A stretch of 32,000 nucleotides of DNA from positions 4,078,661 to 4,110,660 of the forward strand of contig NZ_CP028324.1 of assembly GCF_003028855.1 (NCBI RefSeq), given 5' to 3'. This document shows positions 9,743-24,795 of the stretch, one piece after another (position 1 is the first letter of the stretch; every line of letters begins with the position of its first letter). The translations under genes and the position numbers were made by a program. The notes beneath the pieces are model-generated. The model ran no database searches. It was not told where the DNA came from and saw only the letters and a program-made list of their open reading frames with translations. Source of the DNA: Pseudoduganella armeniaca. GTDB taxonomy: Bacteria; Pseudomonadota; Gammaproteobacteria; Burkholderiales; Burkholderiaceae_D.

Positions 9743-9819
9743 TGGTGGGCGGTGAGGAATTCGAATCCCCGACCCCTTGGATGTCGACCAAGTATTCTAA
9801 CCAGCTGAACTAACCGCCC
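9743..9819 (-). tRNA. tRNA-Val (anticodon GAC), copy 2
   Basis: The 77-nt sequence is identical to copy 1. The identity extends a few nt into both flanks (ttctggtggg...ccgcccgatg). Confidence 0.92.
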
Positions 9820-11683: not shown

Positions 11684-14600
11684 ATGACCGAACCCACGCC
11701 AAAGCCCACCGAACGCGCGCCCGAAGTCGCCGTCGCTCCACTCAACACGATCGACCAGCAAGATGTCGGCGCGGCAGCAGCAGCCTTCGACAAATGGCTG
11801 CGCAAGATCAGCCACGATTACGTCACCCTCGAGCGCCTGAGCACCGTGGCTGGCAGCCTGCCGGTGATCGGCAACATCATGGCACTGATCGATGCCATCA
11901 TGGACGTGGTCGGCGTGATCCAGAAATACATCGCCAAGAAGGAAGTCGATTTCCTGCAGTGGGTCAGCCTGGCCATCAACCTGATCGGCGTGGTGCCGCT
12001 GCCCGCGTCGAGCGCGGCGCGCATGTGCCTGCGTCCTACGCTGCATCTGGCGCGGCAAAAGCTCGCCATGGGCTTCAAGGATATCGGCGCGACGCTGGTC
12101 GAGGTGCTGGTGGTGCACCTGAATGCCCGGCTCGCCGGCGAGCTGGAGACCTTCGTCGACGGCGCGATGAGCAGGCTGTCCGGCATCCTGGACGAATGCG
12201 CCAAGGTGGCCGACGGCATCGTTGACGACCTGATCAAGATCCTCAAACGCTGCATCGGCAAGGAACCGCTGTTCGACGTGGCGCCCCCGGCGCAAGCGGA
12301 GAGCAAGCTGCACGACCCAAAGGTGCAAAGCAGCTGGCGCCGCATGCTGGGAGCCATCGACCGGCAATATAAAAGGGCCGCGAACTACGCCGCCGCCACC
12401 GCGGCGCGCCAGTTGCCGGAAAGTGCCGTAGCTGGCGTCACGGCCATCATCACGCACCTGACCGATTTCAAGCCGGCGTTCCGCGGCAAGCTGGCCGCCC
12501 TGGCTGACGAGAAGGCGCAGATGAGCATCAAGTGGATCCTGCTGCGCCTGCGCGACGCGGTCGTCAAGCACAAAAGGGACTATGCGGTCCTGGTGCCGTC
12601 CGCAAAAGGTGCGCAGCACAAGAAAGACAAAGCCGGCCACGAACTGGGCGCCGCCAGCCATCAAAGCCCGGCCACGGGCGACGCCAACGACTGCAAGCTG
12701 TGCCCCGCGAAAGCCGCCACCGCGCACTCGATCAGCTTCGCCACCGGCGCCGAAACCTTTACGCACAGGGACTTCGTGCTGGATGCGCCACTGCCGATCG
12801 AGTGGAGCCGCACCTACCGCAGCCAGCTGGTCGCCTACGATCGCGGCAACCTCGGCGCACGCTGGCTCACGCCGTACAGCACCCGCATTGATGTCGTCAG
12901 CCAGGGCAAGCTCACCGCCCTGCTCTATCACGCCGCCGACGGCCGCAGCCACCGTTATCCCTGGCTGGCGGTCGGCGAGAAGCATCACGATCCGGTCGAG
13001 CAAATCACGCTGACCCGCCTGAGCGTCACCTTGCTCACGCTCGACTTCGGCAAGCCGCTGCCCGAAGGCCAACCAAGCCCCTGGCGCGAAACCTATGAAT
13101 TGACCGACACGGTGCGCAGCAAGGCAGCCGAGATGGGCAAGCAGCACTTCCGCCTGATCTCCATCCACGCCAAGGACGGCGCCGCCCTCGGCCTGCGCTA
13201 CGACCACGTGGCCAATGGCGAGGCGGTGCTGAGCGACATCATCAGCAAGCAAGGCGACACCATCGTCGCCCATGCCGGCACCCAGATTGACGCCGCGACC
13301 GGCCAAATCGTCGCACTGTGGGAAATCAAGGATGGCCAGCTGGTGCGCCAACTGTCCGCCTATGACTATAACGAGCGCGGCGACCTGATCTACGCCCAGG
13401 AAGAAAACGCGGCCGCCTGGCACTACCAGTACGACCGCCACCTCGTCACGCGCTACACCGACCGTACGGGTCGCGGGATCAACCTGGCCTACGACACCAG
13501 CATCGACAGCGGCGCGAACGCGAAAGCGATCCGCGAGTGGGCGGACGACGGCAGTCATGACACCCGCCTCGAATGGGACAAGAACATCCGCCTGACCTAC
13601 GTCACCGACGCGCTGGGCCAGGAAACCCGTTACTACTACGACATCGCCGGCTACACCTACCGCACCATCTACCCGGACGGCCTGGAAGAATGGTTCTACC
13701 GCGACAACGCGAAGAACGTCATTCGCCACATCCACACCGATGGCAACAGCGAGCATTTCCGCTACGACGACCACGGCAACCTGCTGACGCACACCCGAGC
13801 AGATGGCAGCCAGGTCCACTTCGAGTACGACGCCCAGCACCGCATCACCGGCATCCTCGATCCCGAAGGGGGCACCTGGAAGCGCGACTACGATGCGCAA
13901 GGCCACCTGGTCGAGGAAATCGACCCGCTCGGCAGCAAGACCCAATACGCCTACGATAAGGCGGGCCGCCCCGTCGAGGTCACCGATGCCAAGGGCGGCG
14001 TCAAGAAACTGACCTATACGCCGGACGGCCAGCTCGCCAGCTACACGGACTGCTCCGGCCATAGCACCCAATGGCAATACGACGAGCGCAAGCGCCTCAT
14101 CAAACGCTTCGACGCCGCCGGCAACATCACGCGCTATCGCTACACGCCAGTCAATGTCGATACGCTGACACTGGCGCTCAGCGAGGAAACCGGCAATCAC
14201 CCAGGCCAGCTGGAAGCTGTGATCCACCCGGACGGCAGCGAAGAGCAACTGCGCCACGACGCCGAAGGCCGCCTGCTGGCGCACATCGATGCGCTGCAAC
14301 GCCGCACCGCCTACAGCTACACCGCCGCCGGCCTGATCGCGCAGCGAACGGATGCACTGGGCCACAGCCTGCGCTACCGCTGGGACGCGCTGGGCCGGCT
14401 GTCCGCGCTGGAAAACGAAAACGGCAGCGTCTACCGCTTCCAGTACGACCCGGTCGGGCGCCTGCTGCAGGAACAGGGCTTCGATGGCAAGACCACCGAA
14501 TACCGTTACCACGAAGGGACTGGCGTGCTGGCGGAAACCGAGGAAGCCGGCGTGATCACGCGACTCGAGTTCGACGCCATGGGCCGGCTCATGCAGCGCC

Positions 14601-16516
14601 GGGCGGCCGCGCCCGGCCAGCCCGAGCAAATCGAAACCTTCGCCTACTACGCCAGCGGACAACTGGCCGACGCGAAGAACGAACACGCCCGGCTGCAGTG
14701 GTTCTACGACCCCGCCGGAAACCTGGTACGCGAACACCAGCACTATCACGGCCCGTTCCATCCGGACAAGCGCACGGCAGTCTGGCATCACCGCTATGAC
14801 GAGCTGAACCAGCGCATCGGCACGACCCGCCCCGACGGTCACCGCATCGATTGGCTGACGTATGGCGCAGGCCACGTGCACGGCCTGCTGCTCGATGGGC
14901 AGGAACTGGTGTCGTTCGAGCGCGATGCACTGTACCAGGAGACCGCCCGCACGCAGGCCAACGGCCTGCTGCAAACGATGAAGTACGACCCGGCGGGCCG
15001 ACTGATCGAACAGCAGCTAGGCCGGAAGAACGTGGAGTTTCGCCCCGACCAGTACCGTCCCGACGCGCAGGTCGGCATGCAGGCAGCCATCCAGCGGCGC
15101 TACCGTTATGATCGCTCCGGCCAGCTGACGAGTATCGACGATACCCGGCGTGGCCATATCGAATACCGCTACGATCCGATTGGACGGCTGCTGGCGGCGA
15201 CCAGCGCCCTGGGCCATGAGACATTTGCGTTCGACCCGGCGGGCAATATTCAGGTGCCTAATACTGCGCAGCACCACCAGAGCATTGCCACCCGCGCCCC
15301 GCTGCCGAAGGTGCTGGACAACCTTCTGAAGGAATATGCGGGCACCAGCTACCGCTACGACGCTCGCGGCAACCTTATCGAACGCGTGCAGAATGGACAG
15401 CGCAATACGTTCGAATGGGATGCGTTCAACCGGATGACACGCGCTGTCACGAGCCATGGCGTTGTCACCTTCGCCTACGATCCGCTGGGGCGGCGTATCG
15501 CGAAGCATAGCCAGGCAAGCGATGGCACGACTCTCTGCGACACGACCCGGACAATGTACGGCTGGGATGGAGACACGCTGGCGTTGGAAAGCAGCGTTCA
15601 CCGCGGCTATGCAAACAACGTGCGGACGGTGCACTACGTGTACGAACGCGACAGCTTCGTGCCACTAGTGCAGGCGACACGAAGCCAGGCGCTTCAACTG
15701 CCGCCTACGACCGATGTCAAAGCGCTGATGGCGGCCCACTATGGGAAATATGATATCGCGCTCGATCCGTTGTGGAACGGCGAATACGAGCAGGAAGCCG
15801 CATCCTTCGGCGAGGATGAGATCGCGTTTTACCAGTGCGACCACCTCGGCACGCCTCAAGAACTAACCGACCATCAAGGCAAGGTCGGGTGGTCGGCTCA
15901 GTACAAAGCGTGGGGGCAAGCGTGGGAGGCGATCAATGAAGCTGCCTACAGGGCCGGGATTCGAAATCCGCTCCGATTCCAAGGGCAATACTTTGATGAT
16001 GAGACGGGGCTGCATTACAATAGGCATCGCTACTACGACACTCGCGTCGGCAGATTCATCTCCAGTGACCCCATCGGCCTCCTAGGTGGATTGAATTTCC
16101 ATCAGTACGCACCTAATCCTACACAGTGGATTGATCCGCTGGGCTTGGCGAAAGATTGCTCTTGCGGCTGCGGCCCATACTTGAATCAAGATGCGAAGTG
16201 GCGGGAAGTGAAGAACGATCCGAAAACGCCTGCCAATCTTCGTGGATGGATTAAGCATCAAGAGCGACAAGTCGCCTTCGGAAAACAAGCGCAAGTCTAT
16301 GCGCCGCCTGGCTACGATCTGAAGCATAAGAAGGGATGTGAAAGCGAGAGTGGCTTCGACTTTTCGCACACAGATCCAGCTCTGCGCGCAGACCATCAAG
16401 GGATACATCATCGCTACTACAGAAAGCGCGGCGGCTCGTGGACGGTAGCGATGCCGAAGTCGGGAACGCCCGGCACCGGGAAGCTAAGCCTTCCAAAACC
16501 TGGGACCTTACCCTGA
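11684..16516 (+). CDS. Rhs/YD-repeat polymorphic toxin: unrecognised N-terminal region, Rhs shell, PxxxxDPxGL boundary, HNH-like C-terminal toxin tip
   Basis: 1610-aa ORF. From about aa 350 (ISFATGAETFTHRDF...) there are dozens of YD-type repeats (YxYDxxGRL/GNL variants). The Rhs-associated core ends PNPTQWIDPLGL at 16133..16147. A 122-aa tip follows, with a colicin-DNase-like pattern YDLKHKKG...DHQGIHH. The long antisense ORF 11639..14974 is a shadow. Confidence 0.95.
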   Translation: MTEPTPKPTERAPEVAVAPLNTIDQQDVGAAAAAFDKWLRKISHDYVTLERLSTVAGSLPVIGNIMALIDAIMDVVGVIQKYIAKKEVDFLQWVSLAINLIGVVPLPASSAARMCLRPTLHLARQKLAMGFKDIGATLVEVLVVHLNARLAGELETFVDGAMSRLSGILDECAKVADGIVDDLIKILKRCIGKEPLFDVAPPAQAESKLHDPKVQSSWRRMLGAIDRQYKRAANYAAATAARQLPESAVAGVTAIITHLTDFKPAFRGKLAALADEKAQMSIKWILLRLRDAVVKHKRDYAVLVPSAKGAQHKKDKAGHELGAASHQSPATGDANDCKLCPAKAATAHSISFATGAETFTHRDFVLDAPLPIEWSRTYRSQLVAYDRGNLGARWLTPYSTRIDVVSQGKLTALLYHAADGRSHRYPWLAVGEKHHDPVEQITLTRLSVTLLTLDFGKPLPEGQPSPWRETYELTDTVRSKAAEMGKQHFRLISIHAKDGAALGLRYDHVANGEAVLSDIISKQGDTIVAHAGTQIDAATGQIVALWEIKDGQLVRQLSAYDYNERGDLIYAQEENAAAWHYQYDRHLVTRYTDRTGRGINLAYDTSIDSGANAKAIREWADDGSHDTRLEWDKNIRLTYVTDALGQETRYYYDIAGYTYRTIYPDGLEEWFYRDNAKNVIRHIHTDGNSEHFRYDDHGNLLTHTRADGSQVHFEYDAQHRITGILDPEGGTWKRDYDAQGHLVEEIDPLGSKTQYAYDKAGRPVEVTDAKGGVKKLTYTPDGQLASYTDCSGHSTQWQYDERKRLIKRFDAAGNITRYRYTPVNVDTLTLALSEETGNHPGQLEAVIHPDGSEEQLRHDAEGRLLAHIDALQRRTAYSYTAAGLIAQRTDALGHSLRYRWDALGRLSALENENGSVYRFQYDPVGRLLQEQGFDGKTTEYRYHEGTGVLAETEEAGVITRLEFDAMGRLMQRRAAAPGQPEQIETFAYYASGQLADAKNEHARLQWFYDPAGNLVREHQHYHGPFHPDKRTAVWHHRYDELNQRIGTTRPDGHRIDWLTYGAGHVHGLLLDGQELVSFERDALYQETARTQANGLLQTMKYDPAGRLIEQQLGRKNVEFRPDQYRPDAQVGMQAAIQRRYRYDRSGQLTSIDDTRRGHIEYRYDPIGRLLAATSALGHETFAFDPAGNIQVPNTAQHHQSIATRAPLPKVLDNLLKEYAGTSYRYDARGNLIERVQNGQRNTFEWDAFNRMTRAVTSHGVVTFAYDPLGRRIAKHSQASDGTTLCDTTRTMYGWDGDTLALESSVHRGYANNVRTVHYVYERDSFVPLVQATRSQALQLPPTTDVKALMAAHYGKYDIALDPLWNGEYEQEAASFGEDEIAFYQCDHLGTPQELTDHQGKVGWSAQYKAWGQAWEAINEAAYRAGIRNPLRFQGQYFDDETGLHYNRHRYYDTRVGRFISSDPIGLLGGLNFHQYAPNPTQWIDPLGLAKDCSCGCGPYLNQDAKWREVKNDPKTPANLRGWIKHQERQVAFGKQAQVYAPPGYDLKHKKGCESESGFDFSHTDPALRADHQGIHHRYYRKRGGSWTVAMPKSGTPGTGKLSLPKPGTLP

Positions 16517-16522
16517 TAGAAT

Positions 16523-16993
16523 ATGAGCAAAGAAAACGCACTGACCCTTATGTCCAAGGCAACCATGGGCCTGTCCAAGCTGCCCGTGGCTACGCTCAAA
16601 GAGATCGAGTCAACGGAAATCGAAATTGCGCGCCGTTTACCAGACTCGCTCAAGGATTTCTATGAAACGGCATCAAACGGCCTGAGGTTCGGTCGCCTGC
16701 AGATACTACCGGTAAAGTCGAGCACCAACTTGAGAAAAACAGGTGACTCAATCGCACGTCAAAACGATATCCGACACAGTATATGGTTCAACAATGACGC
16801 GGCAACGTTTGCTGAGTTCCTTATTTTCGCCACCGAAAACTCGCAGCGGTGCTTCGCATTCAAACGTGACTCCGAATATGTTTGGGAATGGAAGCAAGAC
16901 GAGGGGCAAGTCGTAGAACTCGACTACAGCTTCTGGGATTGGCTCGAGGAAAGCCTGCATCAAGAGCGAGACCTGCTACGCTTTAAATCTTAG
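16523..16993 (+). CDS. SUKH-superfamily (SMI1/KNR4-like) immunity protein for the Rhs tip
   Basis: 156-aa ORF starting 6 nt after the Rhs stop. The N-terminal pattern IESTEIEIARRLPDSLKDFYETASNG matches the SMI1/KNR4 signature (LP.dyk.f....nG). It has lower GC than the core genome and sits in the classic toxin-immunity position. Confidence 0.8.
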   Translation: MSKENALTLMSKATMGLSKLPVATLKEIESTEIEIARRLPDSLKDFYETASNGLRFGRLQILPVKSSTNLRKTGDSIARQNDIRHSIWFNNDAATFAEFLIFATENSQRCFAFKRDSEYVWEWKQDEGQVVELDYSFWDWLEESLHQERDLLRFKS

Positions 16994-17047
16994 CTCAACC
17001 AACACTGAGGCCAGCCCCGCCAAGTATCTCCAGGCGCTCGGGTCGGC

Positions 17048-18331
17048 ATGCAAGCAGCGACCCGGCGGCGCTACCCCTACGACCGAGTTTGGCAACTGAC
17101 GAGCATCGACGACAGCCGTCGCGGCCATATCGAATACCGCTATGATCTGATCGGACGGCTGCTGGCCGCAAACAGCGCGATGGGCCATGAGACCTTCGCG
17201 TTCGACCCGGCTGGCAATATCCAGGTGCCCAGTACTACCCGACACCAGAGCATTGCCACCCGCGCCCCGCTGCCGAAAATACTGGACAACCTGCTCAAGG
17301 AATACGCCGGCACTAGCTACCGTTACGACGATCGCGGTAACCTCATCGAACGGATGCAGAACGGCCAGCGCGATACATTCGAGTGGGATGCGTTAAACCG
17401 GATGACACGCGCCACGACCCGGTACGGCGTCACTACCTTCGCCTACGATCCCCTGGGGCGGCGCATTGCGAAGCACAGCCAGGCGAGCGGCGGCACTACT
17501 CTCCGAAATACCGCGCGAACCATATACGGCTGGGATGGCGATACGCTGGCGTTGGAAAGTAGTGTGCGTCAGGGCTATGCCCCTGCTGAACGGACGGTTC
17601 ACTACGTGTACGAACGCGACAGCTTCGTGCCACTGATGCAGGCCAGTCATGCCAAGGCGCTTAGCCTTGCGCCTACCACCGATGTGAAAGCGTTGATGGC
17701 GGCCAATTTCGGTAGGTACGATATTGCACTTGATCCACTTTGGAATGACGAGTACGAACGCGAAGCCGAACCGTTTGTGAAGGATGAGATCGCGTTCTAT
17801 CAATGCGACCATCTAGGCACCCCGCAGGAATTGACAGATCACGAAGGCAAGGTTGCATGGTCGGCGCAGTACATGGCGTGGGGACAGGCTAAAGAAGCGA
17901 TCAGCCAGGGAGCGCACGAGGCTGGGATGCGGAATCCCATACGGTTCCCGGGGCAGCACCTTGATGAAGAAACAGGACTTCACTACAACAGGCACAGGTA
18001 TTACGAGCCTTACTCGGGACGCTTCGTCAGCAGCGATCCGATTGGGCTACTCGGTGGACTGAATCTGCACAGATACGCACCGAATCCGTTGCAATGGATT
18101 GATCCGCTGGGCCTTGCTGGTGGCCCGGCTGTCGGCGTGGATTCGCACGGGCAATGGATCGATGCCTCGGGAAGCGCGGCAAGTGCTCCCAATGTTGCAA
18201 GCCTCCCAGCATTACGTGGCGCATCCATTCCGCAGGTGCGCAGTATTTTGAACGGTCAAGGATATTCGCTTCAAAATCCGGGCAATGCACGTAACGAACG
18301 GTGGAAGCATAGTGATGGTTCGGAAGTATAG
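17048..18331 (+). CDS. Orphan Rhs C-terminal fragment (3' core plus alternative toxin tip), truncated at an in-frame TAG
   Basis: 427-aa ORF. Its first 356 aa align collinearly with residues encoded at 15077..16147 of the full-length Rhs, and roughly four-fifths are identical by eye. The alignment includes the DPLGL boundary at 18101..18115, after which the sequence diverges completely. There is no Rhs N-terminus and no obvious SD. Confidence 0.85.
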   Translation: MQAATRRRYPYDRVWQLTSIDDSRRGHIEYRYDLIGRLLAANSAMGHETFAFDPAGNIQVPSTTRHQSIATRAPLPKILDNLLKEYAGTSYRYDDRGNLIERMQNGQRDTFEWDALNRMTRATTRYGVTTFAYDPLGRRIAKHSQASGGTTLRNTARTIYGWDGDTLALESSVRQGYAPAERTVHYVYERDSFVPLMQASHAKALSLAPTTDVKALMAANFGRYDIALDPLWNDEYEREAEPFVKDEIAFYQCDHLGTPQELTDHEGKVAWSAQYMAWGQAKEAISQGAHEAGMRNPIRFPGQHLDEETGLHYNRHRYYEPYSGRFVSSDPIGLLGGLNLHRYAPNPLQWIDPLGLAGGPAVGVDSHGQWIDASGSAASAPNVASLPALRGASIPQVRSILNGQGYSLQNPGNARNERWKHSDGSEV

Positions 18332-18541
18332 ATTCATAAATACGGCAATACGAACCTTACACCCCATAAATGCGGAAATAATGCTCATGCACATAAGTCG
18401 CTTGGTAGGCACGGCACCCCCAATGCTGTCGAATTGAGCGATCGAGCCAGGCCGGTAAGCCAGTATTCGTCTGACGCTCACATTGGCCTGAAGAACCCGG
18501 CGGACTACCCAGCTGTTGCGGGTAGACCTCACGGTAGCTAG
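18332..18541 (+). pseudogene. In-frame, stop-free continuation of the orphan toxin tip beyond the TAG at 18329..18331
   Basis: 69 further sense codons lie in the same frame (IHKYGNTNLTPHKCGNNAHAHKSLGRHGTPNAVELSDRARPVSQYSSDAHIGLKNPADYPAVAGRPHGS), ending at the TAG at 18539..18541. That is 22 nt before the next gene's ATG. This segment contains no ATG, which is why it is absent from the ORF track. Confidence 0.5.
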
Positions 18542-18563
18542 TTTGGATCAGAAAGGGAGAATT

Positions 18564-18887
18564 ATGGCAGCGGAATTTTATATCGTATTTGATGAGCCAT
18601 CTTGGTATGAAAGAAATCAGGGCGCAGTCAAGACGTTCATTAGATCATTAGGCACATTTAGAAAGGAAATCGACGCTAACGAGTATTGGTTACGAGGAGA
18701 TGAGCCTGGCGGCAATTGGACTTATGGTGTCAGAATATTCACTCGCCCTCGTGACATCCTTGTGGAGATTAGCAGTCATCCGGCTTCAATAGTCAATGAT
18801 CTAAGAGAGTTGAACCGTCTGATATCCGAACACGCTAAAATCAAAGTTGTCGATGATGACGGGGAACGCGTAGATGACTACGAATGA
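18564..18887 (+). CDS. Small hypothetical protein, candidate immunity protein for the orphan toxin tip
   Basis: 107 aa from MAAEFYIVFDEPSWYERNQ, with an AGGGAG SD 6-7 nt upstream of the ATG at 18564. The track ORF begins further upstream at 18516. The gene is AT-richer than the genome and acidic at its C-terminus. No family was recognised; the call rests on position only. Confidence 0.55.
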   Translation: MAAEFYIVFDEPSWYERNQGAVKTFIRSLGTFRKEIDANEYWLRGDEPGGNWTYGVRIFTRPRDILVEISSHPASIVNDLRELNRLISEHAKIKVVDDDGERVDDYE

Positions 18888-19193: not shown

Positions 19194-22100
19194 TCAACCC
19201 GCCACAAAATCCCCCCGCACCTGCCGCAGCCGCTCAGCCAAATCCGCCTGCATACCCGGCCCTAACGCCTCGGTCGCGATATGCCGCCCCAGCCGCCGGT
19301 AGCTCTCGAACTGGTCCTCACCGTAGAACTGGTCCCCGGTCGATTCGTGCGGGAAGGCGGGATGCTCGGCGTGGTACTGGTGCAGCGAGGCGTCGCCCAC
19401 CGTGGGCGGCAGCGTCGCCTTCAGGTACACCAGCGTCCCCTCCCCTTCGGCCACGCCATCGGCATCGCGGTAGACGATGCGACCGACCACGCAGCTGCAT
19501 TGACTGAGACCGGTCTGGCCATCCCGCGCCAGCGGCGTCACGTCGATGTCGATGTCGGCGTTGAAGTCCACCTTGCATAGCCGGATCAGCGTGCCCAGTG
19601 CGCCGCAGCGCAGGGCCGGATCGCATTCTGCATCCACCGCCACGATCAGCGCGCAGCGCCGCCGCACCAGTTCGTACACGCCCAGGTTGTCGAAGTGGCC
19701 GCCGTCGGAAATCATCAGGTAGCGCGAACGCTCATTGGCCGATGCGAACAACTCCATCAACAGGCAGCCCGTGCTGAGGGCCGGCGACGTGCGCTGGCGC
19801 GGGAAGCGCGGGTTGGCGAACCAGCGGCCCAGCCGCACGTTAAACAGCGTCATCATGAACGCCACCGCCGGCGACGAGTGAAAGCCCTGGTTCGGGCTGG
19901 CCGCCGCGCCGGACACGGAGATCGCCTCGGCCAAGGTCAGCTCACCCGCCCCCGTGTCGTCGCACGGCTGGTGGCGCCGGTAGCCGATCTTGTCCGCCGG
20001 GCACTCGCCGTAGTCGCTGCCCAGCGCCAGCGGGCCGATCGTGAACGACGCGCCATGGCGGGTGTGCAGCGACAGGTCGCCTGAGCCGCCCAGGTTGACC
20101 GTACAATTGATCAGGTGCAGGGGCAGGGCCGGCGGCGCGTCCGGCCCCTCGCGCGGCTGCAGCGCGCACAGCGCGATATCGTCCTTCTCGTCGAACTGCG
20201 TGAAGTTCTGCGGCTTGCGGGCGCGGTGCGACGCGCCCAGGTAGCAGCGTGCCAGCCGGCTGCGGTAGAACGCATGCAGGCTGAATTCGTTGATGTCCAC
20301 GCGCCAGGCCAGCAGCAGGCCCACCAGCGCCACGCCCAGCATCACGGCGGCGATCAGGCCAGCCGACGGCGCCCAGCGCTGCGCCCAGTAGGGATCGAAG
20401 CAGGCCGTGCCGGTGCAGCGGCCGAAGTCGATGGCGATCGCTGCGCCAGGCACGGCGGCATACGTCATTACCACGTACAGCAAGGCGGAAACGCCGATCA
20501 GCAGGCCGACGATGAACAGCGGCGGCGCGATCTTTGTGAGCGCATCGAGCGCGATCATGGGCAAGGTCTTGCGCTTCGAGCGGATCGTATCGTCGCCGCC
20601 GGACGCGGACGAGTTGGCGGCCAGCAGGCCGGCCACCGTGGTGCCGATCCAGCCCACCACCGGCGTCAAGGCCTTCCAGTGGTCCAGGCTGGCCAGCCAC
20701 AACACCAACATCGGCCCGTACAGCGCCGACAGTGTCAGCACGTTCCACACCGAGGCATAGATCCACAGCCACGCCGCCAGCCGGCTCCACCATTCGCGCA
20801 TCCCTTCCAGCGAGGCCTTGCCCACCAGGCCGATCATCAACGTCACGGCCGAGGCGAACGCGGACAGGATCAGCGTCGGTCCCCAGATGAACGCATGCCA
20901 CGACTGCGCGTCCGTCCCCAGCCGGGCCTGGGCGCCCGCGTCGAACCAGTGCATCAACCACAGGATGCCGCAGAACATCGCGTGCAACGCCAGCATGCAG
21001 ACGGCCGACGCCAACGTGATCAGCACCACGTTGAACACCACGCGCGGCACCTGGTGCCGGCCGGTGGTGCCGCGCCAGCAGCGCAGCGAGCAGCAGGCCA
21101 GCATCACCAGCGCCGTGAACGCCAGCGCCAGCTGGAACGGCCAGGCGCTGGGCTGGTGCGTCAGCAGGTAGCCGTAGCCGACGTCCTCCGGCAAGCCGCG
21201 CGCGAGGTGCGCCAGCACGGCCGACAGCTCGACGCTCGTCAGCAGCATCGGCACCACGATCCAGCGCTGCACGGCGACCTGGCCGAAGTCGGGCCAGTCG
21301 CACTCGCTCTGGAACACGTTGCAACGCGCCAGCGCCGGCAGTGCGCACAGCGCGCCCAGCATCAGCAGCGCGGCGATCGGCACGGCCCAGGCGCTGACGG
21401 GCGCGGTCTCGAACGGATTGAAGCCGGTCACGCGCCACAGTGCCGCGCAGACCGACAGCAGCATCACGCTGACGCCGGCCCAGCGGCCCCAGTGCCGCGG
21501 GTGAAAGCGCCAGTCGCGCTGCAGCGGCGAAGGCTGCGCGCTGCCGCCCTGGTCGCGCCTCTGGCGCAGCTGGTTAGCCGCCAGGAGCACGACGGCACCG
21601 ACGAACAGGCCGATGGTGCCGCCCCGCACCAGCTGGTATTCGGGCCAGATGGCGAACCAGCGCATCGCCAGCTGCGGCACCAGCAGCAGCAGGACGATGC
21701 CGCAGATGATCGTCAGCTGCACCAGCGCGGCATTGCGCATCCAGGTGGTCAGCATGGTCCACGTGTCGGCGCTGAACAGGCCGACCTTGGGCGACAGGTA
21801 GTTGGAGAACTTGCTCAGGTGGGCGATCGACTGGCGCCACAGGCCGGCGCGCTCCGGCTCCAGCCACCCGCTGCCGTCGCGATGGCAATGGGCGCGCAGC
21901 CACGCCATGATGTAGCCGCCGCCGGACACAGATGACCAGTAATCGAAGCGGCGCAGCAGCTCCAGGTCGCGCAGCGCTTCCAGCACGCCCAGGCCGAAGG
22001 TGGCGCTGCGGATGCCGCCGCCGGACAATGCCAGCGCCGCCAGCGGCGCGTCATGGGCGACGCCGATGCGGTCGCGCCAGCGGTCGACTTGTTCGCGTTC

Positions 22101-22259
22101 GGCGCGCAGCACCTCGTCCGCGTCGAGCCGGCCATTGCCCAGCGCGGCCGGCGGGGCCTGCGGGGCCTGCGGGGCCGGCATGGCGGGCCCGGGCTGGAGC
22201 GGTTGAAGCGGTTCGTTCGGCTCGAAGGGTGGATTCGATGGCTGCGGTACGGCACTCAT
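19194..22259 (-). CDS. Patatin-like phospholipase with a large polytopic membrane insertion between the catalytic Ser and Asp motifs
   Basis: The preferred start is the ATG at 22259 (GGGAGG SD 6 nt upstream); the track ORF starts at a TTG at 22286. The N-terminal part carries ALSGGGIRSATFGLGVLEAL (oxyanion G-G-G-x-R) and WSSVSGGGYI (nucleophile elbow). About a dozen hydrophobic segments follow. The C-terminal part carries FYRSRLARCYLG, ISVSGAAASPNQG and YLMISDGGHFDNLGVYEL (the D-G-G catalytic Asp motif). Confidence 0.85.
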   Translation of the reverse strand: MSAVPQPSNPPFEPNEPLQPLQPGPAMPAPQAPQAPPAALGNGRLDADEVLRAEREQVDRWRDRIGVAHDAPLAALALSGGGIRSATFGLGVLEALRDLELLRRFDYWSSVSGGGYIMAWLRAHCHRDGSGWLEPERAGLWRQSIAHLSKFSNYLSPKVGLFSADTWTMLTTWMRNAALVQLTIICGIVLLLLVPQLAMRWFAIWPEYQLVRGGTIGLFVGAVVLLAANQLRQRRDQGGSAQPSPLQRDWRFHPRHWGRWAGVSVMLLSVCAALWRVTGFNPFETAPVSAWAVPIAALLMLGALCALPALARCNVFQSECDWPDFGQVAVQRWIVVPMLLTSVELSAVLAHLARGLPEDVGYGYLLTHQPSAWPFQLALAFTALVMLACCSLRCWRGTTGRHQVPRVVFNVVLITLASAVCMLALHAMFCGILWLMHWFDAGAQARLGTDAQSWHAFIWGPTLILSAFASAVTLMIGLVGKASLEGMREWWSRLAAWLWIYASVWNVLTLSALYGPMLVLWLASLDHWKALTPVVGWIGTTVAGLLAANSSASGGDDTIRSKRKTLPMIALDALTKIAPPLFIVGLLIGVSALLYVVMTYAAVPGAAIAIDFGRCTGTACFDPYWAQRWAPSAGLIAAVMLGVALVGLLLAWRVDINEFSLHAFYRSRLARCYLGASHRARKPQNFTQFDEKDDIALCALQPREGPDAPPALPLHLINCTVNLGGSGDLSLHTRHGASFTIGPLALGSDYGECPADKIGYRRHQPCDDTGAGELTLAEAISVSGAAASPNQGFHSSPAVAFMMTLFNVRLGRWFANPRFPRQRTSPALSTGCLLMELFASANERSRYLMISDGGHFDNLGVYELVRRRCALIVAVDAECDPALRCGALGTLIRLCKVDFNADIDIDVTPLARDGQTGLSQCSCVVGRIVYRDADGVAEGEGTLVYLKATLPPTVGDASLHQYHAEHPAFPHESTGDQFYGEDQFESYRRLGRHIATEALGPGMQADLAERLRQVRGDFVAG

Positions 22260-22310
22260 GGCGACCTCCCGGGCTTGTGCTTGCAACAGCGTAGCCCTGG
22301 CGGCGCCGGG

Positions 22311-22340
22311 AGATTGTCACGGATTGTCACCGTTTGTCGC
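22311..22340. promoter_or_regulatory. Three tandem 10-bp repeats (aGATTGTCAC / gGATTGTCAC / cGTTTGTCGC) upstream of the patatin-like gene
   Basis: Direct reading shows units exactly 10 bp apart (one helical turn), 52-81 nt upstream of the ATG at 22259. This looks like a phased transcription-factor binding array. Confidence 0.35.
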
Positions 22341-22377
22341 GGTGTGGTTTTTCTGCCATCTACGAACAGACGAGCTT

Positions 22378-22469
22378 GGGGTCTGTCCCTGCACGGGGAC
22401 CGACCCCGGTTTTCATCGATACCCAAACGGCGCGATAAAAACCAGGGTCAGTCCCGAAGGGACAGACCC
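22378..22469. repeat. Pair of REP-like imperfect hairpins in inverted orientation (GGGGTCTGTCCC..GGGGACCGACCCC and GGGTCAGTCCC-GAA-GGGACAGACCC)
   Basis: The left unit at 22378..22413 ends in TTTT and the right unit at 22437..22469 starts with AAAA. The two units are approximate reverse complements and flank about 23 nt. Confidence 0.6.
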
Positions 22470-22492
22470 TAAGCCTGATCCGCTAAACCCGA

Positions 22493-22545
22493 GGGGACAG
22501 GCACCTGTCTGAGGGTCGAAGACCCTCAGACAGGTGCCTGTCCCC
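22493..22545. repeat. 53-nt perfect palindrome (25-bp stem, 3-nt loop); likely relA terminator and member of a dispersed palindromic repeat family
   Basis: GGGGACAGGCACCTGTCTGAGGGTC-GAA-GACCCTCAGACAGGTGCCTGTCCCC lies 6 nt downstream of the relA stop. It is closely related to the palindrome at 31348..31400. Confidence 0.8.
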
Positions 22546-22551
22546 GTTGCT

Positions 22552-24795
22552 TCATGCGCGTCGGGCTTCGAGCACCCCGGTCACCTCGGAAATGGCCGCC
22601 AGCGCCTTCTGCAGCTGGGCCGTGGCCCCGATCTCGGCGGTGAAGGTCATGCGCGCCTGTCCTTTCGCGCTCTGCGTATTGACGCCGATGACGTTGATCT
22701 TCTCGCGCGAGAAGATCTCGGAGATGTCGCGCAACAGTCCCTGGCGGTCGCCCGCCAGCACGAACAGGTCGACCGGATAGACGGTATCGCCGCGCGTATT
22801 GCCCCATTCGGTGACGATGACGCGTTCCGGCGCCTTGGCGCGCATCTCGGCGAAGTTCTTGCAGGAGAGGCGATGGATCGACACGCCCTTGCCGCGCGTG
22901 ACGAAGCCGACGATCGGGTCGGGCGGCGCCGGCTTGCAGCAGCGCGCCAGCTGCGTCATCAGCCCTTCGGTGCCGACCACCAGCACGCCCGACTTGGCGC
23001 CCTGCTCGGTCGAGGAGGCGCGGCTCTTGTTGAGCACCACCGCGTCTTCCGGCGGCGGCGCCTCGGCCGGGTCGTGCAGCGCCTGCTCGACGTGGCGCAG
23101 GCTGAACTCCTCCTTGCCGACCGAGAGGAACAGGTCGTCGACCTTGCCGAAGCCCAGCTTCTGCGCCAGCGCTTCCAGGTTGACGGCCGTCTTGCCCTCG
23201 CGCTGCAGCGATTTCTCGACCAGCGCGCGGCCATGCGACAGGGTCTCCTGCATGTCGATCGCATGGAACCAGGCGCGTACCTTGGCGCGGGTGCGGTTGC
23301 TGACGGCGTAGCCGGGGCTGAGCCAGTCGCGCGACGGCCCGGCCGATCCCGGCGCGCCCTTGGCGGTGATGATCTCGCAGGTCTGGCCGCTTTTTAATGG
23401 GGTATTGAGCGGCACCATGATGCCGTCCACCCGCGCGCCGCGGCAGCGGTGGCCGACGTCGCTGTGCAGGTGATAGGCGAAGTCGATCGGCGTCGCGCCG
23501 ACCGGCAGCTCGAGCACGCGCGCCTGCGGCGTCAGGACGAAGATGCGGTCGTCCAGCGCGGCCGACTTGAGCTTTTCCACCCATTCGCGCTGCAGCTCCT
23601 CCTGGCCGACGACGGCATCGGCCACGTCGGTCTTCCAGGCCAGCAGCTGGCGCAGCCAGGCGATCTTCTCGTCGTATTTCTGACCCTGGAAGTTGGAGCC
23701 GCCCTCCTCCTTGTAGCGCCAGTGCGCCGCCACGCCATACTCGGCGAAGCTGTGCATCTCCTGGGTGCGGATCTGCACTTCGAGCGGCCGGCCGTCGTCC
23801 GCCGTCACCACCGTGTGCAGCGACTGGTAGCCGTTCGGCTTGGGGCGCGAGATGTAGTCGTCGAATTCCTTCGGGATCGGTGTCCAGATATTGTGCACCA
23901 CGCCCAGCACCGTGTAGCAGGTCTTCACGTCCGCCACGATGACGCGGAACGCACGCACGTCGTACAGCTCCGTGAAATCGAGCTCCTTGCCGCGCATCTT
24001 GTTCCAGATGCTGTAGATGTGTTTCGGCCGGCCGAACACCTCGGCCTTGATGCCGGCATTGGCCAGCTCCGTCTGCAGCCGTTCGATCGACTGCTCGACG
24101 AAGCTCTCGCGCATCATGCGCTTCTCTTCCAGCATCTTGGCAATGCGCTTGTAGTTTTCCGGCTCGATGAAGCGGAACGACAGGTCCTCCAGCTCCCACT
24201 TGATCTGCCAGATGCCGAGGCGGTTGGCCAGCGGCGCGTACAGGTCCAGCGTTTCGCGGCCGTAGGCGCGCGTCATCTCGTTGAACAGTTTCGCGTCCGC
24301 GAAATAGCGCAGCGTGCTGCAGCAGGAGGCCAGGCGCACCAGCACCACGCGCATGTCGGAGGCCATCGCCAGCAGCATCTTGCGCAGCGTTTCCATCTGC
24401 GCCACCGCCTGCTGCGCGGCGTTCTTGCCGCGCGTGGCGGCGGGACTGCCCTGGGTCAGCTCGCGCAGCCGGATCAGCTGGTGCACGCCCGTCACCAGGT
24501 CGGACACCTCCTTGCCGAACTTCGGCTCGATGGCGATGGCCTGGGCCGGGTCGAGCAGGCACAGCTCGAACATCAGGCCGGCGATACGGGTGGCCGCGTC
24601 GGTCCGCAGCAGGGCCAGCGTGGTGGCCACGCCGACGGCGAAATCGAAGGCGTTCTGGCCGCTGGTGGCGGTCTTGCCCGCATAAGCGTCGCTGGCGAAA
24701 TCGAGCGCCGCCAGCACGCGCACGCCATCTTCGTGGGACAGCCCCTGGACCAACTGGTCGGACGTTGCGCTGTTCAGCGCCGCGATGGAAACCAT
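22552..24795 (-). CDS. relA: GTP pyrophosphokinase / (p)ppGpp synthetase, RelA-type (hydrolase domain appears degenerate)
   Basis: 747-aa ORF. Synthetase motifs are present (DVRAFRVIV, YISRPKPNGYQSLHTVV, EVQIRTQEMH), along with a TGS domain (IFVLTPQARVLELPVGATPIDFAYHLHSDVGHRC) and a C-terminal ACT-like region. The N-terminal region lacks the HD metal-binding signature expected for SpoT. Confidence 0.9.
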   Translation of the reverse strand: MVSIAALNSATSDQLVQGLSHEDGVRVLAALDFASDAYAGKTATSGQNAFDFAVGVATTLALLRTDAATRIAGLMFELCLLDPAQAIAIEPKFGKEVSDLVTGVHQLIRLRELTQGSPAATRGKNAAQQAVAQMETLRKMLLAMASDMRVVLVRLASCCSTLRYFADAKLFNEMTRAYGRETLDLYAPLANRLGIWQIKWELEDLSFRFIEPENYKRIAKMLEEKRMMRESFVEQSIERLQTELANAGIKAEVFGRPKHIYSIWNKMRGKELDFTELYDVRAFRVIVADVKTCYTVLGVVHNIWTPIPKEFDDYISRPKPNGYQSLHTVVTADDGRPLEVQIRTQEMHSFAEYGVAAHWRYKEEGGSNFQGQKYDEKIAWLRQLLAWKTDVADAVVGQEELQREWVEKLKSAALDDRIFVLTPQARVLELPVGATPIDFAYHLHSDVGHRCRGARVDGIMVPLNTPLKSGQTCEIITAKGAPGSAGPSRDWLSPGYAVSNRTRAKVRAWFHAIDMQETLSHGRALVEKSLQREGKTAVNLEALAQKLGFGKVDDLFLSVGKEEFSLRHVEQALHDPAEAPPPEDAVVLNKSRASSTEQGAKSGVLVVGTEGLMTQLARCCKPAPPDPIVGFVTRGKGVSIHRLSCKNFAEMRAKAPERVIVTEWGNTRGDTVYPVDLFVLAGDRQGLLRDISEIFSREKINVIGVNTQSAKGQARMTFTAEIGATAQLQKALAAISEVTGVLEARRA

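What the first reader, a model, noticed from the sequence alone, without database searches (positions are those of the whole stretch)
19194..22259. Patatin-like lipase whose catalytic domain is split by about a dozen transmembrane-like helices
Seen in sequence:
- The oxyanion motif (SGGGIRS) and the serine elbow (SVSGGG) lie within the first ~115 residues.
- The matching catalytic Asp motif (ISDGGHFDNLG) lies about 730 residues later.
- The interval contains roughly twelve long hydrophobic segments. Examples are AALVQLTIICGIVLLLLVPQLA, WAVPIAALLMLGALCALPALA and LFIVGLLIGVSALLYVVMTY.
- A Pro/Gln-rich low-complexity N-terminus precedes everything.

Established knowledge: patatin/cPLA2-type lipases use a Ser-Asp dyad carried by G-G-G-x-[KR], G-x-S-x-G and D-G-[AG] motifs. 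These normally sit within one compact soluble domain a few hundred residues long. Patatin effectors are used as membrane-destroying modules in CBASS (CapV) and as toxins (ExoU).

Inference: here a polytopic membrane module is inserted into the lipase fold, or clamps its two halves. That would suit a membrane-embedded sensor or gate controlling a lipase, for example a single-gene abortive-infection or envelope-stress effector, or a membrane lipid-remodelling enzyme. I do not recognise this as a characterised architecture. The gene has host-like GC but abuts the Rhs accessory region and has its own phased repeat array upstream.
Basis: partly seen in the sequence, partly recalled or inferred. Interest (0 to 1): 0.72.

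Follow-up and report, generated by a model that had tools for sequence, protein, structure and literature searches.

The report
Membrane-embedded split cPLA2-like lipase
This gene encodes a lipid-cleaving enzyme of the patatin/cPLA2 type whose catalytic domain is interrupted by twelve membrane-spanning helices; about a thousand bacterial protein clusters share this layout and I found no published study of it.

Summary
The ORF at 19194-22259 (-) encodes 1021 aa. GGGIR (aa 80-84) and the serine elbow SVSGG (Ser112) lie at the N-terminus, SDGGH (Asp852) lies 740 residues later, and twelve TM helices (aa 166-654) lie between them.

The N-half matches cPLA2-delta by sequence. A separately modelled C-half matches the same PDB entry. 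Positive-inside counts place both halves in the cytoplasm. Ser-Asp proximity could not be measured.

The layout is a family hallmark. There are more than 3,298 full-length homologues, 990 clusters (50% identity) carry the TM module, and relatives occur in at least 593 species genomes across many phyla. There is no NCBIfam, PADLOC or Pfam model for the insert, and I found no paper on it.

The defence reading is not supported for this gene. It sits in a conserved relA-X-CDF-thrS backbone slot, the Rhs cassette is a later insertion, there is no partner gene, and there is no phage copy. The "repeat array" is a set of REP-like hairpins after relA.

Two side findings:
- A 6-TM sister clade is flanked by ThsB/TIR genes in all 3 loci examined.
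- About 12% of family loci carry haem dioxygenase or DyP peroxidase genes, and one homologue is a DyP fusion.

Best reading: an inner-membrane acyl hydrolase for membrane-lipid turnover. It is a new variant of a known kind.

The parts
19194..22259 (-). Complete CDS, 1021 aa plus stop: the split cPLA2/patatin-like lipase with a 12-TM insert
   Evidence: ORF list. GC3 is 0.91. More than 3,298 full-length homologues.
22265..22269 (-). Shine-Dalgarno GGAGG, 5 nt upstream of the ATG at 22259. It supports the ATG start rather than the upstream TTG at 22286.
   Evidence: Read from the sequence.
22131..22259 (-). Pro/Gln-rich low-complexity N-terminal tail (aa 1-43), predicted disordered and not conserved
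   Evidence: pLDDT 31-39. Mean column conservation 0.10.
21765..22130 (-). N-terminal part of the lipase domain (aa 44-165): strand, Gly-rich loop, helix, strand, nucleophile elbow, helices
   Evidence: Pfam Patatin matches aa 76-121 at 31.9 bits (cut-off 27.7), profile positions 1-44 of 191. Aligns to cPLA2-delta residues 305-378. pLDDT is about 90 or above.
22008..22025 (-). Oxyanion / phosphate-binding loop S79-G-G-G-I-R84
   Evidence: Invariant in 68 homologues. Aligns with GGGAR of cPLA2-delta.
21918..21932 (-). Nucleophile elbow S110-V-S112-G-G114. This is a variant, [ST]-x-S-x-G, of the canonical G-x-S-x-G.
   Evidence: S112 is invariant. It aligns with the Ser of GISGS in cPLA2-delta.
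21759..21806 (-). Near-invariant junction motif S152-NYLSPxVGxFSADTW167, linking the lipase N-half to TM1. It has low model confidence and may be a hinge or lid.
   Evidence: At least 95% conserved. pLDDT is below 50 for aa 154-160.
20298..21764 (-). Inserted membrane module (aa 166-654) with 12 TM helices, N-in/C-in. It has invariant polar residues N176, Q181, N229, Q327, Q331, R488-E-W-W491, R493 and Y501.
   Evidence: Hydropathy. AF2 helices. Positive-inside counts 13.7 versus 4.6 K+R. Conservation. 990 clusters carry this module. No Pfam model. No credible PDB fold match. No 6+6 internal repeat.
19197..20297 (-). C-terminal part of the lipase domain (aa 655-1021). It opens with the near-invariant junction motif RVDINEFSLxAFYRSRLxRCYLGA.
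   Evidence: The C-half model (pLDDT 75, pTM 0.72) has cPLA2-delta 5iz5_B as its only credible PDB match: probability 0.98, E 8.9e-3, 362 columns, TMq 0.42. Mean conservation 0.72.
19695..19709 (-). Catalytic Asp motif S851-D852-G-G-H855, preceded by a beta-strand (aa 847-851)
   Evidence: Invariant in 68 homologues. It is the only DG[AG] in the protein. Strand assignment.
22374..22545 (.). Cluster of GC-rich palindromes between the relA stop (22552) and the target. It includes a perfect 25-nt inverted repeat at 22493-22545. These are REP-like or terminator hairpins, not a phased array.
   Evidence: 7 of the 11 GGGACAGNCCC matches in the window fall here, against 2.9 expected for the whole window. 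No Rfam family.
22312..22331 (-). 10-bp tandem duplication GTGACAATC[C/T] x2, 53-72 nt upstream of the ATG. One copy is present at a similar position in the syntenic locus L005. It may be a promoter or operator element.
   Evidence: Function not tested.

Best explanation
The gene encodes an integral inner-membrane acyl hydrolase of the patatin/cPLA2 superfamily.

**Layout.**
- One cPLA2-like alpha/beta domain is encoded in two pieces, aa 44-165 and aa 655-1021.
- The first piece carries the Gly-rich oxyanion loop and Ser112. The second carries Asp852.
- A conserved 12-helix membrane bundle is inserted about 50 residues after the nucleophile.
- Twelve is an even number of helices, so both pieces lie on the cytoplasmic face, where they are predicted to reassemble into one catalytic domain sitting on the bundle.

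**Proposed mechanism (inferred).**
- The bundle takes over the jobs that the C2 domain and cap do in cPLA2.
- It fixes the active site at the inner-leaflet interface.
- It provides, and possibly gates, the path by which a membrane glycerolipid reaches Ser112. An acyl chain is then hydrolysed.

**Proposed role in this organism, a Pseudoduganella (inferred).** The likeliest role is endogenous membrane-lipid turnover or repair. This would be a built-in, Lands-cycle-type phospholipase A that may remove damaged or oxidised acyl chains. I consider phage defence less likely.

**Status of each step.**
- Shown: the motifs, the TM insert, the topology signal, the cPLA2 similarity of each half, the size of the family and the genomic context.
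- Inferred: reassembly of the dyad, lipase activity, the substrate and the physiological role.
For: **Architecture**
- Motif positions and their invariance.
- The Pfam Patatin match stops at profile position 44.
- The N-half aligns to cPLA2-delta, VipD and ExoU.
- Full-length model: pLDDT 81, pTM 0.79, with pLDDT around 90 or above for much of both lipase halves.
- cPLA2 alpha and delta are the top PDB folds for the full model.
- cPLA2-delta is the only credible fold for the C-half modelled alone.
- The first 50 residues of the C-half score much higher in the full-length model (pLDDT about 77-87) than alone (36-77), as expected if the rest of the protein stabilises it.

**Topology**
- Twelve TM helices.
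- K+R counts are 13.7 on the lipase side versus 4.6 on the other side, averaged over 68 homologues.
- There is no signal peptide.

**The TM module is functional, not a mere anchor**
- Mean conservation is 0.61, with 39 positions at 95% or above, several of them polar.
- Both junction motifs are near-invariant.
- The module was found only together with a patatin N-fragment in 8 of 8 distant hits sampled.

**Housekeeping-type context**
- Synteny relA-X-CDF-thrS holds in L001 and L005.
- GC3 is host-like.
- No conserved partner gene.
- No PADLOC or NCBIfam hit.
- Absent from 50,697 phage records.

**Link to lipid oxidation chemistry elsewhere in the family**
- RoxA-like di-haem enzymes and/or a DyP peroxidase lie beside homologues in 11 of 93 loci, from Acidobacteriota and from Alpha-, Beta- and Gammaproteobacteria.
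- One homologue, P0062, is a DyP fusion.

**Precedents from the literature**
- PlaF is a membrane-anchored intracellular PLA used for phospholipid remodelling in P. aeruginosa (PMC9132575).
- The patatin enzyme iPLA2-gamma releases oxidised acyl chains (PMC8146845).
- Di-haem CcP-like enzymes act as fatty-acid dioxygenases (PMC4496055).
Against: - The Foldseek matches are modest: E about 3e-3 to 9e-3, TM-scores 0.2-0.4 and rmsd about 10 A.
- The elbow is [ST]-x-S-x-G, not the canonical G-x-S-x-G.
- No enzymatic or genetic data exist for any member.
- The gene is only 55% identical to its syntenic P. lurida counterpart, while the flanking genes are 86-93% identical. That rate is unusual for a housekeeping enzyme and is more typical of conflict genes.
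- The haem-enzyme neighbours are absent from this window.
- A sister clade is TIR-linked.
Confidence: 0.6

Rival explanations
1. It is a stand-alone defence or suicide effector. The TM bundle senses envelope or phage-induced perturbation and unleashes the lipase on the cell's own inner membrane, giving abortive infection.
For: - Patatin lipases are membrane-destroying effectors in CBASS (established knowledge).
- A sister clade with the same split design (N-extension, about 6 TM helices, C-half 36% identical) is flanked by ThsB/TIR genes in all 3 plasmid loci examined.
- A preprint lists phospholipases among predicted Thoeris effectors (10.64898/2025.12.03.692087).
- The gene diverges much faster than its neighbours: 55% versus 86-93% identity.
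- One paralogous locus, L085, sits near HepT/NTase, JetD_C and T6SS genes.
Against: - There is no sensor or signal-generating partner in the window.
- No conserved neighbour in 85 loci.
- No TIR-like ORF near any 12-TM member.
- No PADLOC hit.
- No phage copy.
- It sits in a conserved backbone slot next to relA with host-like GC3.
- The Rhs cassette is an independent insertion that is absent from the syntenic genomes.
Confidence: 0.17
2. It is the fatty-acid-releasing first step of a bacterial oxylipin or lipid-peroxide pathway. The lipase frees unsaturated or peroxidised acyl chains, which haem dioxygenases and peroxidases then convert. This would parallel the eukaryotic route from cPLA2 to COX, LOX or AOS.
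For: - Eight of 93 loci carry a recurrent cluster beside the lipase gene: an 829-aa CxxCH protein, 418-, 443- and 144-aa proteins, and a DyP peroxidase that matches PDB 8re3 at 3e-40. Three further loci carry bona fide NF040606 RoxA-like di-haem enzymes. Together that is 11 of 93 loci.
- P0062 fuses a DyP-like domain to the lipase.
- The closest structural relative is cPLA2.
- Di-haem CcP-like enzymes are fatty-acid dioxygenases in P. aeruginosa (PMC4496055, PMC5155153).
- The only PDB hit of the 418-aa protein is coral allene oxide synthase, but it is not significant (E 0.48).
Against: - The association holds for only about 12% of sampled loci and not for this window. The nearest lipid gene here, a fatty-acid desaturase at 29588-30547, is 7 kb away and separated by unrelated genes.
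- The 829-aa protein scores far below the NF040606 cut-off (31 versus 150 bits).
- There are no biochemical data.
Confidence: 0.13
3. It is a transport-coupled enzyme. The 12-TM module is a lipid, lysolipid or fatty-acid transporter or flippase, and the lipase or acyltransferase domain processes its cargo. The LplT-Aas pairing is the analogy.
For: - Twelve TM helices is a typical transporter number.
- The bundle contains invariant polar residues.
- The weak Foldseek hits are all to transporters: Nramp, MATE, POT and M-PPase.
Against: - All those hits have probability 0.2 or below and rmsd of about 19-37 A.
- There is no 6+6 internal repeat (hhalign probability 1% or below).
- No Pfam transporter family matches, even at E up to 1.
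Confidence: 0.07

Closest known systems
Metazoan group IV cytosolic phospholipase A2 (cPLA2 alpha and delta; PDB 1cjy, 5iz5)
   Same: - It is the best sequence and fold match for both halves.
- It shares the GGGxR loop, a Ser nucleophile in an x-S-G elbow and an Asp partner.
- The Ser-to-Asp interval outside the insert is long, about 250 residues. From memory, not checked here, cPLA2-alpha has about 320 and potato patatin about 140.
   Different: - The window protein has no C2 domain.
- It does not match Pfam PLA2_B.
- It carries a 490-residue, 12-TM insertion after the nucleophile helix, so it is an integral membrane protein rather than a soluble one recruited by Ca2+.
- It is bacterial.
- The similarity is remote, at 11-14% identity overall and 27-28% in the N-terminal 115-144 columns.
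Patatin/PNPLA family (Pfam PF01734), including the bacterial toxins ExoU and VipD and the CBASS effector CapV
   Same: - The Pfam match is above the gathering cut-off.
- It has Ser-Asp dyad motifs.
- The N-terminal region aligns weakly with VipD and ExoU.
   Different: - Only profile positions 1-44 of 191 align.
- The domain is not contiguous.
- It is not secreted: it has no signal and is a polytopic membrane protein.
- There is no PADLOC CapV-type hit and no CD-NTase neighbour.
PlaF of Pseudomonas aeruginosa (membrane-anchored intracellular phospholipase A; PMC9132575)
   Same: It is a bacterial inner-membrane lipase thought to degrade endogenous glycerophospholipids for remodelling. This is the role I propose here.
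   Different: - PlaF has an alpha/beta-hydrolase fold with a Ser-His-Asp triad and a single N-terminal TM helix.
- It is not homologous to the window protein.
- The role proposed for the window protein is inferred, not shown.
TIR-linked 6-TM split patatin clade on rhizobial plasmids (L088, L089, L093; uncharacterised)
   Same: - It has the same split design, with 60% identity over the GGGIRSAT...SGGGY segment and 36% over the C-half.
- The hydrophobic insert lies between the Ser and Asp motifs.
   Different: - It has about 6 TM helices rather than 12.
- It has an extra N-terminal domain of about 195 aa.
- It is embedded among ThsB/TIR, SLOG and Nmad2 genes.
- Its TM region shows no significant similarity to that of the window protein.

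Membership tests
Patatin/PNPLA (PF01734) | Pfam HMM score above the gathering threshold | tested here: met
   31.9 bits against a cut-off of 27.7. The match covers only aa 76-121, which is profile positions 1-44 of 191.
Patatin/PNPLA (PF01734) | Gly-rich oxyanion loop G-G-G-x-[KR] | tested here: met
   G80-G-G-I-R84, invariant in 68 homologues.
Patatin/PNPLA (PF01734) | Nucleophile elbow G-x-S-x-G | tested here: inconclusive
   The motif is S110-V-S112-G-G, with family consensus T-V-S-G-G, so the first Gly is replaced. S112 is invariant and aligns with the cPLA2-delta nucleophile. Catalysis was not tested.
Patatin/PNPLA (PF01734) | Asp of the dyad in D-G-[AG], positioned next to the Ser in one compact domain | tested here: inconclusive
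Patatin/PNPLA (PF01734) | Contiguous soluble catalytic domain of a few hundred residues | tested here: not met
   A 12-TM module of about 490 residues separates the Ser and Asp segments.
Group IV cPLA2 (Pfam PLA2_B, PF01735) | Fold similarity to the cPLA2 catalytic domain | tested here: met
   Full model against 1cjy and 5iz5: probability 1.0, E 3e-3 to 9e-3. C-half alone against 5iz5_B: probability 0.98. The scores are modest.
Group IV cPLA2 (Pfam PLA2_B, PF01735) | PLA2_B HMM match and an N-terminal C2 domain | tested here: not met
   No PF01735 or C2 hit at E up to 1.
CBASS CapV-type or other known defence patatin effectors | Match to defence-system HMMs and an adjacent signal-generating or sensor gene | tested here: not met
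   No PADLOC hit. The neighbours are relA, Rhs, a CDF transporter and an abhydrolase.
Thoeris-like (TIR plus effector) systems | A ThsB/TIR gene in the same locus | tested here: not met
   No TIR in the window or in 85 loci of the 12-TM clade (the home-made HMM has limited sensitivity). The feature is met only in the sister clade, L088, L089 and L093.
Known transporter superfamilies (MFS, APC, MATE, Nramp) | Significant fold or profile match, or the internal 6+6 repeat typical of 12-TM carriers | tested here: not met
   Foldseek probability 0.2 or below. No Pfam family. hhalign of TM1-6 against TM7-12 gives probability 1% or below.

The most novel reading that the evidence does not exclude
The family may be a new class of intramembrane-coupled lipases. 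In this reading a dedicated 12-helix bundle with a previously undescribed fold extracts or gates bilayer phospholipids directly into a cPLA2-like active site.

It would be the bacterial counterpart, and possibly a relative of the ancestor, of metazoan cPLA2. In part of the family it would feed haem dioxygenases and peroxidases in a bacterial oxylipin or lipid-peroxide-repair pathway. A sister clade would have been recruited as a TIR-controlled suicide effector.
Probability: 0.25. Interest if true: 0.8.

Novelty: new variant of a known kind. Interest (0 to 1): 0.6.

Why it matters
**What is unusual.** Patatin and cPLA2 lipases are understood as soluble enzymes that must be recruited to membranes. 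Here the catalytic domain itself is interrupted by a conserved polytopic membrane module. The family is large, with about 1,000 clusters at 50% identity and relatives in at least 593 species genomes across many phyla. I found no functional study of it.

**What it would open up if the mechanism holds.**
- It gives a candidate for the poorly known enzymes that degrade or repair endogenous bacterial membrane phospholipids.
- It provides a natural system for studying how a lipase is coupled to a membrane domain.
- It offers a structural link to animal cPLA2.

**Side findings that give entry points.**
- The recurrent pairing with RoxA-like di-haem and DyP enzymes points to bacterial lipid-oxidation chemistry.
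- The TIR-flanked sister clade points to a possible new Thoeris-type effector.

Tried and rejected
**Structure checks that could not be run**
I modelled the C-half alone instead.
3. The spliced profile searched against PDB sequences still aligned only the N-half.
4. Model coordinates are not exposed to the script sandbox, so there are no contact or distance measurements.

**Database and repeat searches that found nothing**
5. NCBIfam and PADLOC gave nothing for the target.
6. An internal 6+6 duplication of the TM module was rejected.
7. An Rfam scan of the upstream region gave only sub-threshold hairpin-like miRNA hits. I rejected these as meaningless.
8. The promoter scan found no sigma-70-like site.

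**Interpretations rejected**
9. The idea that adjacency to Rhs is functional was rejected, because the cassette is absent from the syntenic loci L001 and L005.
10. A universal conserved neighbour was rejected by clustering all ORFs of 85 loci.

**Literature**
11. Six literature searches found no description of the architecture. The library lacks most subscription-journal papers, so absence is not proof.

Full report

Yes. The window has one long ORF on the minus strand, 19194..22286 from a TTG. GC3 is 0.91, which matches the flanking housekeeping genes at 0.87-0.93.

- GGGIR at aa 80-84;
- SVSGG at aa 110-114;
- the only DG[AG] of the protein at aa 852-854 (ISDGGHFDNLG), 740 residues after Ser112.

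Kyte-Doolittle scanning gives about twelve hydrophobic segments between aa 173 and 657. An AlphaFold2 model built on 68 homologues has mean pLDDT 81.2 and pTM 0.79, and it shows twelve long helices in that interval. The Pro/Gln-rich first 43 residues are modelled as disordered and are not conserved.

This is not chance. The three motifs are invariant in the alignment. In 211 of 266 retrieved relatives, SGGGx[RK] and SDGGH lie 625-900 residues apart.

**2. Are the two ends parts of one lipase domain?**

*Sequence.*
- Pfam Patatin scores above its cut-off (31.9 versus 27.7 bits). It aligns only aa 76-121 to profile positions 1-44 of 191 and breaks off at the insert.
- A family profile searched against PDB sequences aligns the N-half to cPLA2-delta residues 305-378. 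Ser112 falls on that enzyme's nucleophile. VipD, ExoU and cPLA2-alpha match more weakly.

*Fold.*
- The best PDB matches of the full model are cPLA2-alpha (1cjy) and cPLA2-delta (5iz5, 5izr), all at probability 1.0.
- Foldseek's local alignments cannot bridge a 490-residue insert. I therefore modelled aa 650-1021 alone, giving pLDDT 75 and pTM 0.72.
- The only credible PDB match of that model is again cPLA2-delta 5iz5_B, with probability 0.98, E 8.9e-3, 362 columns and TMq 0.42. Apart from one 53-column fragment (probability 0.57), every other hit has probability 0.21 or below.
- So each half independently resembles the matching part of the same enzyme.

*Topology.* Twelve helices is an even number. 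Across 68 homologues, the loops on the same side as the lipase halves carry 13.7 K+R on average, against 4.6 on the other side. Both halves are therefore cytoplasmic.

*Supporting detail.*
- The first 50 residues of the C-half are modelled with much higher confidence in the full-length protein (pLDDT about 77-87) than alone (36-77).
- Both junctions are near-invariant: SNYLSPxVGxFSADTW before TM1 and RVDINEFSLxAFYRSRLxRCYLGA after TM12.

**3. The membrane module**

- It is conserved, with a mean column identity of 0.61 and 39 positions at 95% or above between aa 166 and 654.
- The conserved positions include the polar residues N176, Q181, N229, Q327, Q331, R488-E-W-W491, R493 and Y501. I infer from this that the module does more than anchor the enzyme.
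- It matches no Pfam family, even at E up to 1.
- It has no credible PDB fold match. The transporter hits have probability 0.2 or below and rmsd of about 19-37 A.
- It has no internal 6+6 repeat.
- Searched alone against 1.84 billion representative proteins, it finds 990 clusters at E 1e-3 or better and 346 at 1e-10 or better.
- All eight distant hits that I scanned carry a Patatin N-fragment just upstream of the module. Many of them also have an N-terminal extension of 300-540 aa with no Pfam match.
- In that sample the module was never found apart from the split lipase.

**4. Family and distribution**

- There are more than 3,298 full-length homologues of about 930-1,100 aa. They are named only "patatin-like phospholipase family protein" or "hypothetical protein".
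- Relatives occur in at least 593 species genomes. The phyla include Acidobacteriota, Alpha-, Beta- and Gammaproteobacteria, Bacteroidota, Nitrospirota, Planctomycetota, Verrucomicrobiota and Chlorobiota.
- 42 plasmid records carry a relative. They are mostly large, non-mobilizable replicons (27 of 42) of several hundred kb to over 2 Mb.
- None of 50,697 phage records carries one.
- There is no NCBIfam or PADLOC model.
- Six literature searches found no paper on this architecture.

**5. Genomic context of the window gene**

The window carries, in order:
- a LuxR-type response regulator;
- pheT, pheS and thrS;
- a CDF cation-efflux gene (10432-11358);
- a full Rhs gene (11684-16516);
- an orphan Rhs C-terminal gene (17048-18331);
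- a small low-GC ORF (18516-18887);
- the target;
- relA (22552-24795);
- an alpha/beta-hydrolase gene and an SDR gene;
- a TonB-dependent receptor gene;
- a fatty-acid desaturase gene;
- a phosphonate-binding protein gene.

In Pseudoduganella lurida (L001) and a Pseudoduganella MAG (L005) the order is SDR, abhydrolase, relA, target, CDF, thrS, with no Rhs. The Rhs cassette is therefore a later insertion beside a backbone gene, and the adjacency carries no functional weight.

Clustering every ORF of 100 aa or more from 85 loci found no neighbour shared by more than about 8 loci. Annotated contexts vary widely.

One oddity remains. relA, thrS and CDF are 92%, 93% and 86% identical to those of P. 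lurida. The target is only 55% identical: 66% in the N-half, 49% in the TM module and 65% in the C-half. Its catalytic halves are still 55-58% identical to homologues from Acidobacteriota. Either the gene diverges rapidly or it was replaced in situ by a xenologue. I cannot tell which.

**6. The "repeat array"**

The 292-bp relA-target spacer holds three kinds of feature:
- a perfect 25-nt inverted repeat immediately after the relA stop;
- two further GC-rich hairpins sharing GGGACAGNCCC (7 of the window's 11 matches fall here, against 2.9 expected for the whole window);
- a single 10-bp tandem duplication, GTGACAATC[C/T] x2, 53-72 nt upstream of the ATG.

One copy of the duplicated unit recurs at a similar position in L005. 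There is no Rfam family and no sigma-70 consensus. These look like REP-type or terminator hairpins plus a possible promoter or operator element. They are not a phased array.

**7. Clues to function from relatives**

*(a) Haem enzymes.* Eleven of 93 loci carry haem enzymes beside the lipase gene.
- A five-gene cluster occurs in full or in part in Acidobacteriota (L002/L003, L004, L007), Crenothrix (L008), Chromobacterium (L064), a Gemmataceae MAG (L025), a Thiobacillaceae MAG (L071) and a metagenome contig (L087). It comprises a 144-aa protein, an 829-aa protein with two CxxCH motifs, 418- and 443-aa proteins, and a 476-aa DyP-type peroxidase that matches PDB 8re3 at E 3e-40.
- Bona fide NF040606 "di-heme cytochrome c peroxidase" genes, the RoxA/RoxB-related subfamily, occur in Rhizobium, Methylobacterium and L056.
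- P0062 is a DyP-lipase fusion.
- Enzymes of the di-haem CcP type act as fatty-acid dioxygenases in P. aeruginosa (PMC4496055, PMC5155153).
- This suggests a link to oxidised or unsaturated acyl chains in part of the family. None of these genes is in this window.

*(b) A TIR-linked sister clade.* It sits on rhizobial plasmids, in Mesorhizobium (L088), Sinorhizobium (L089) and Rhizobium beringeri (L093).
- It has the same split design, but with an extra N-terminal domain of about 195 aa and about six TM helices.
- The C-half is 36% identical to the window protein, and the GGGIRSAT...SGGGY segment is 60% identical.
- It is flanked by ThsB-like TIR genes in all three loci (PADLOC ThsB at 1e-49 to 1e-64), together with SLOG and Nmad2 genes.
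- No TIR was detected near any 12-TM member.

**8. Most likely mechanism**

I read the protein as a cytoplasm-facing cPLA2-like acyl hydrolase built into the inner membrane. The 12-helix bundle replaces the C2 and cap functions of cPLA2. It holds the active site at the inner leaflet and supplies, and perhaps gates, substrate access.

Three invariant loops are modelled with low confidence: aa 154-160, 725-733 and 785-795. They are candidate mobile lid elements, which is an inference.

For this Pseudoduganella gene, the backbone position next to relA, the lack of partner genes and the absence from phages favour endogenous membrane-lipid turnover or repair. PlaF (PMC9132575) and iPLA2-gamma (PMC8146845) are functional analogies only.

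My rough probabilities are:
- membrane-lipid turnover or repair: about 0.6;
- stand-alone suicide or defence effector: about 0.17;
- dedicated oxylipin-pathway enzyme: about 0.13;
- transport-coupled enzyme: about 0.07.

**9. Verdict**

The protein belongs to the patatin/cPLA2 superfamily, yet it fails that family's "contiguous soluble domain" criterion. It is best described as a new architectural variant of a known enzyme kind. The family is large, widespread and, as far as I could find, unstudied. Interest is 0.6.

Noticed in passing
L088 1-5926, L089 1-8060, L093 6001-14364 (rhizobial plasmids): A sister clade of split patatin proteins (858-890 aa) has an N-terminal domain of about 195 aa, a patatin N-half, about 6 TM helices and a C-half. 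It is flanked by several ThsB-like TIR genes in all 3 loci examined, together with Nmad2, SLOG-cluster2, ParA-TIR and WD40 genes. It looks like an undescribed Thoeris-type system with a membrane lipase as effector.
   Followed up: partly
L002 931-7972; also L004, L007, L008, L025, L064, L071, L087; L056, L090 491-2716, L092 2617-4425: Haem enzymes recur next to family members in 11 of 93 loci, across four bacterial classes. They include an 829-aa CxxCH protein, a DyP-type peroxidase, 418-, 443- and 144-aa proteins without Pfam matches, and NF040606 RoxA-like di-haem enzymes. P0062 (1442 aa) fuses a DyP-like domain to the lipase. None of these genes is in the window.
   Followed up: partly
window 11684-18887: An Rhs cassette comprises a full Rhs gene (1610 aa, with a weak sub-threshold Ntox8-like match near the C-terminus), an orphan Rhs C-terminal gene (427 aa, GC3 0.64) and a low-GC 123-aa ORF (GC3 0.43, no Pfam hit, possibly an immunity gene). 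The whole cassette is absent from the syntenic loci L001 and L005, so it was inserted between the CDF gene and the lipase gene.
   Followed up: partly
window 19194-22259 compared with L001 and L005: The lipase gene is only 55% (L001) and 45% (L005) identical to its syntenic counterparts, while flanking relA, thrS and CDF are 75-93% identical. Its catalytic halves are almost as similar to Acidobacteriota homologues (55-58%) as to same-genus ones (63-66%). It is unresolved whether this reflects fast divergence or replacement in situ by a xenologue.
   Followed up: partly
window 22374-22545: Three GC-rich palindromes share a GGGACAGNCCC core directly after the relA stop. One is a perfect 25-nt inverted repeat. 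They are likely REP-type or terminator elements. They produce only sub-threshold miRNA-like Rfam hits.
   Followed up: yes
window 22312-22331; L005 about 9768-9777: A 10-bp tandem duplication, GTGACAATC[C/T] x2, lies 53-72 nt upstream of the lipase start. One CCGTGACAAT copy occurs at a similar distance in L005. It may be a -35-like box or an operator. This was not tested.
   Followed up: partly
P0147, P0157, P0161, P0200, P0224, P0253 and others: Twenty-six of 211 family members carry N-terminal extensions of 300-540 aa before the Gly-rich loop. The four of them that were scanned (P0062, P0066 is shorter and excluded, P0147, P0224) show no Pfam domain there, apart from the DyP-like domain of P0062. 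These extensions may be sensor or regulatory domains.
   Followed up: no
window protein aa 154-160, 725-733, 785-795 (window 21780-21800, 20061-20087, 19875-19907): Three loops are invariant or nearly so across the family (YLSPxVG, GGSxDLxLHT, SGAAASPNxGxH) but are modelled with pLDDT below 50. They are candidate mobile lid or substrate-binding elements around the active site.
   Followed up: no
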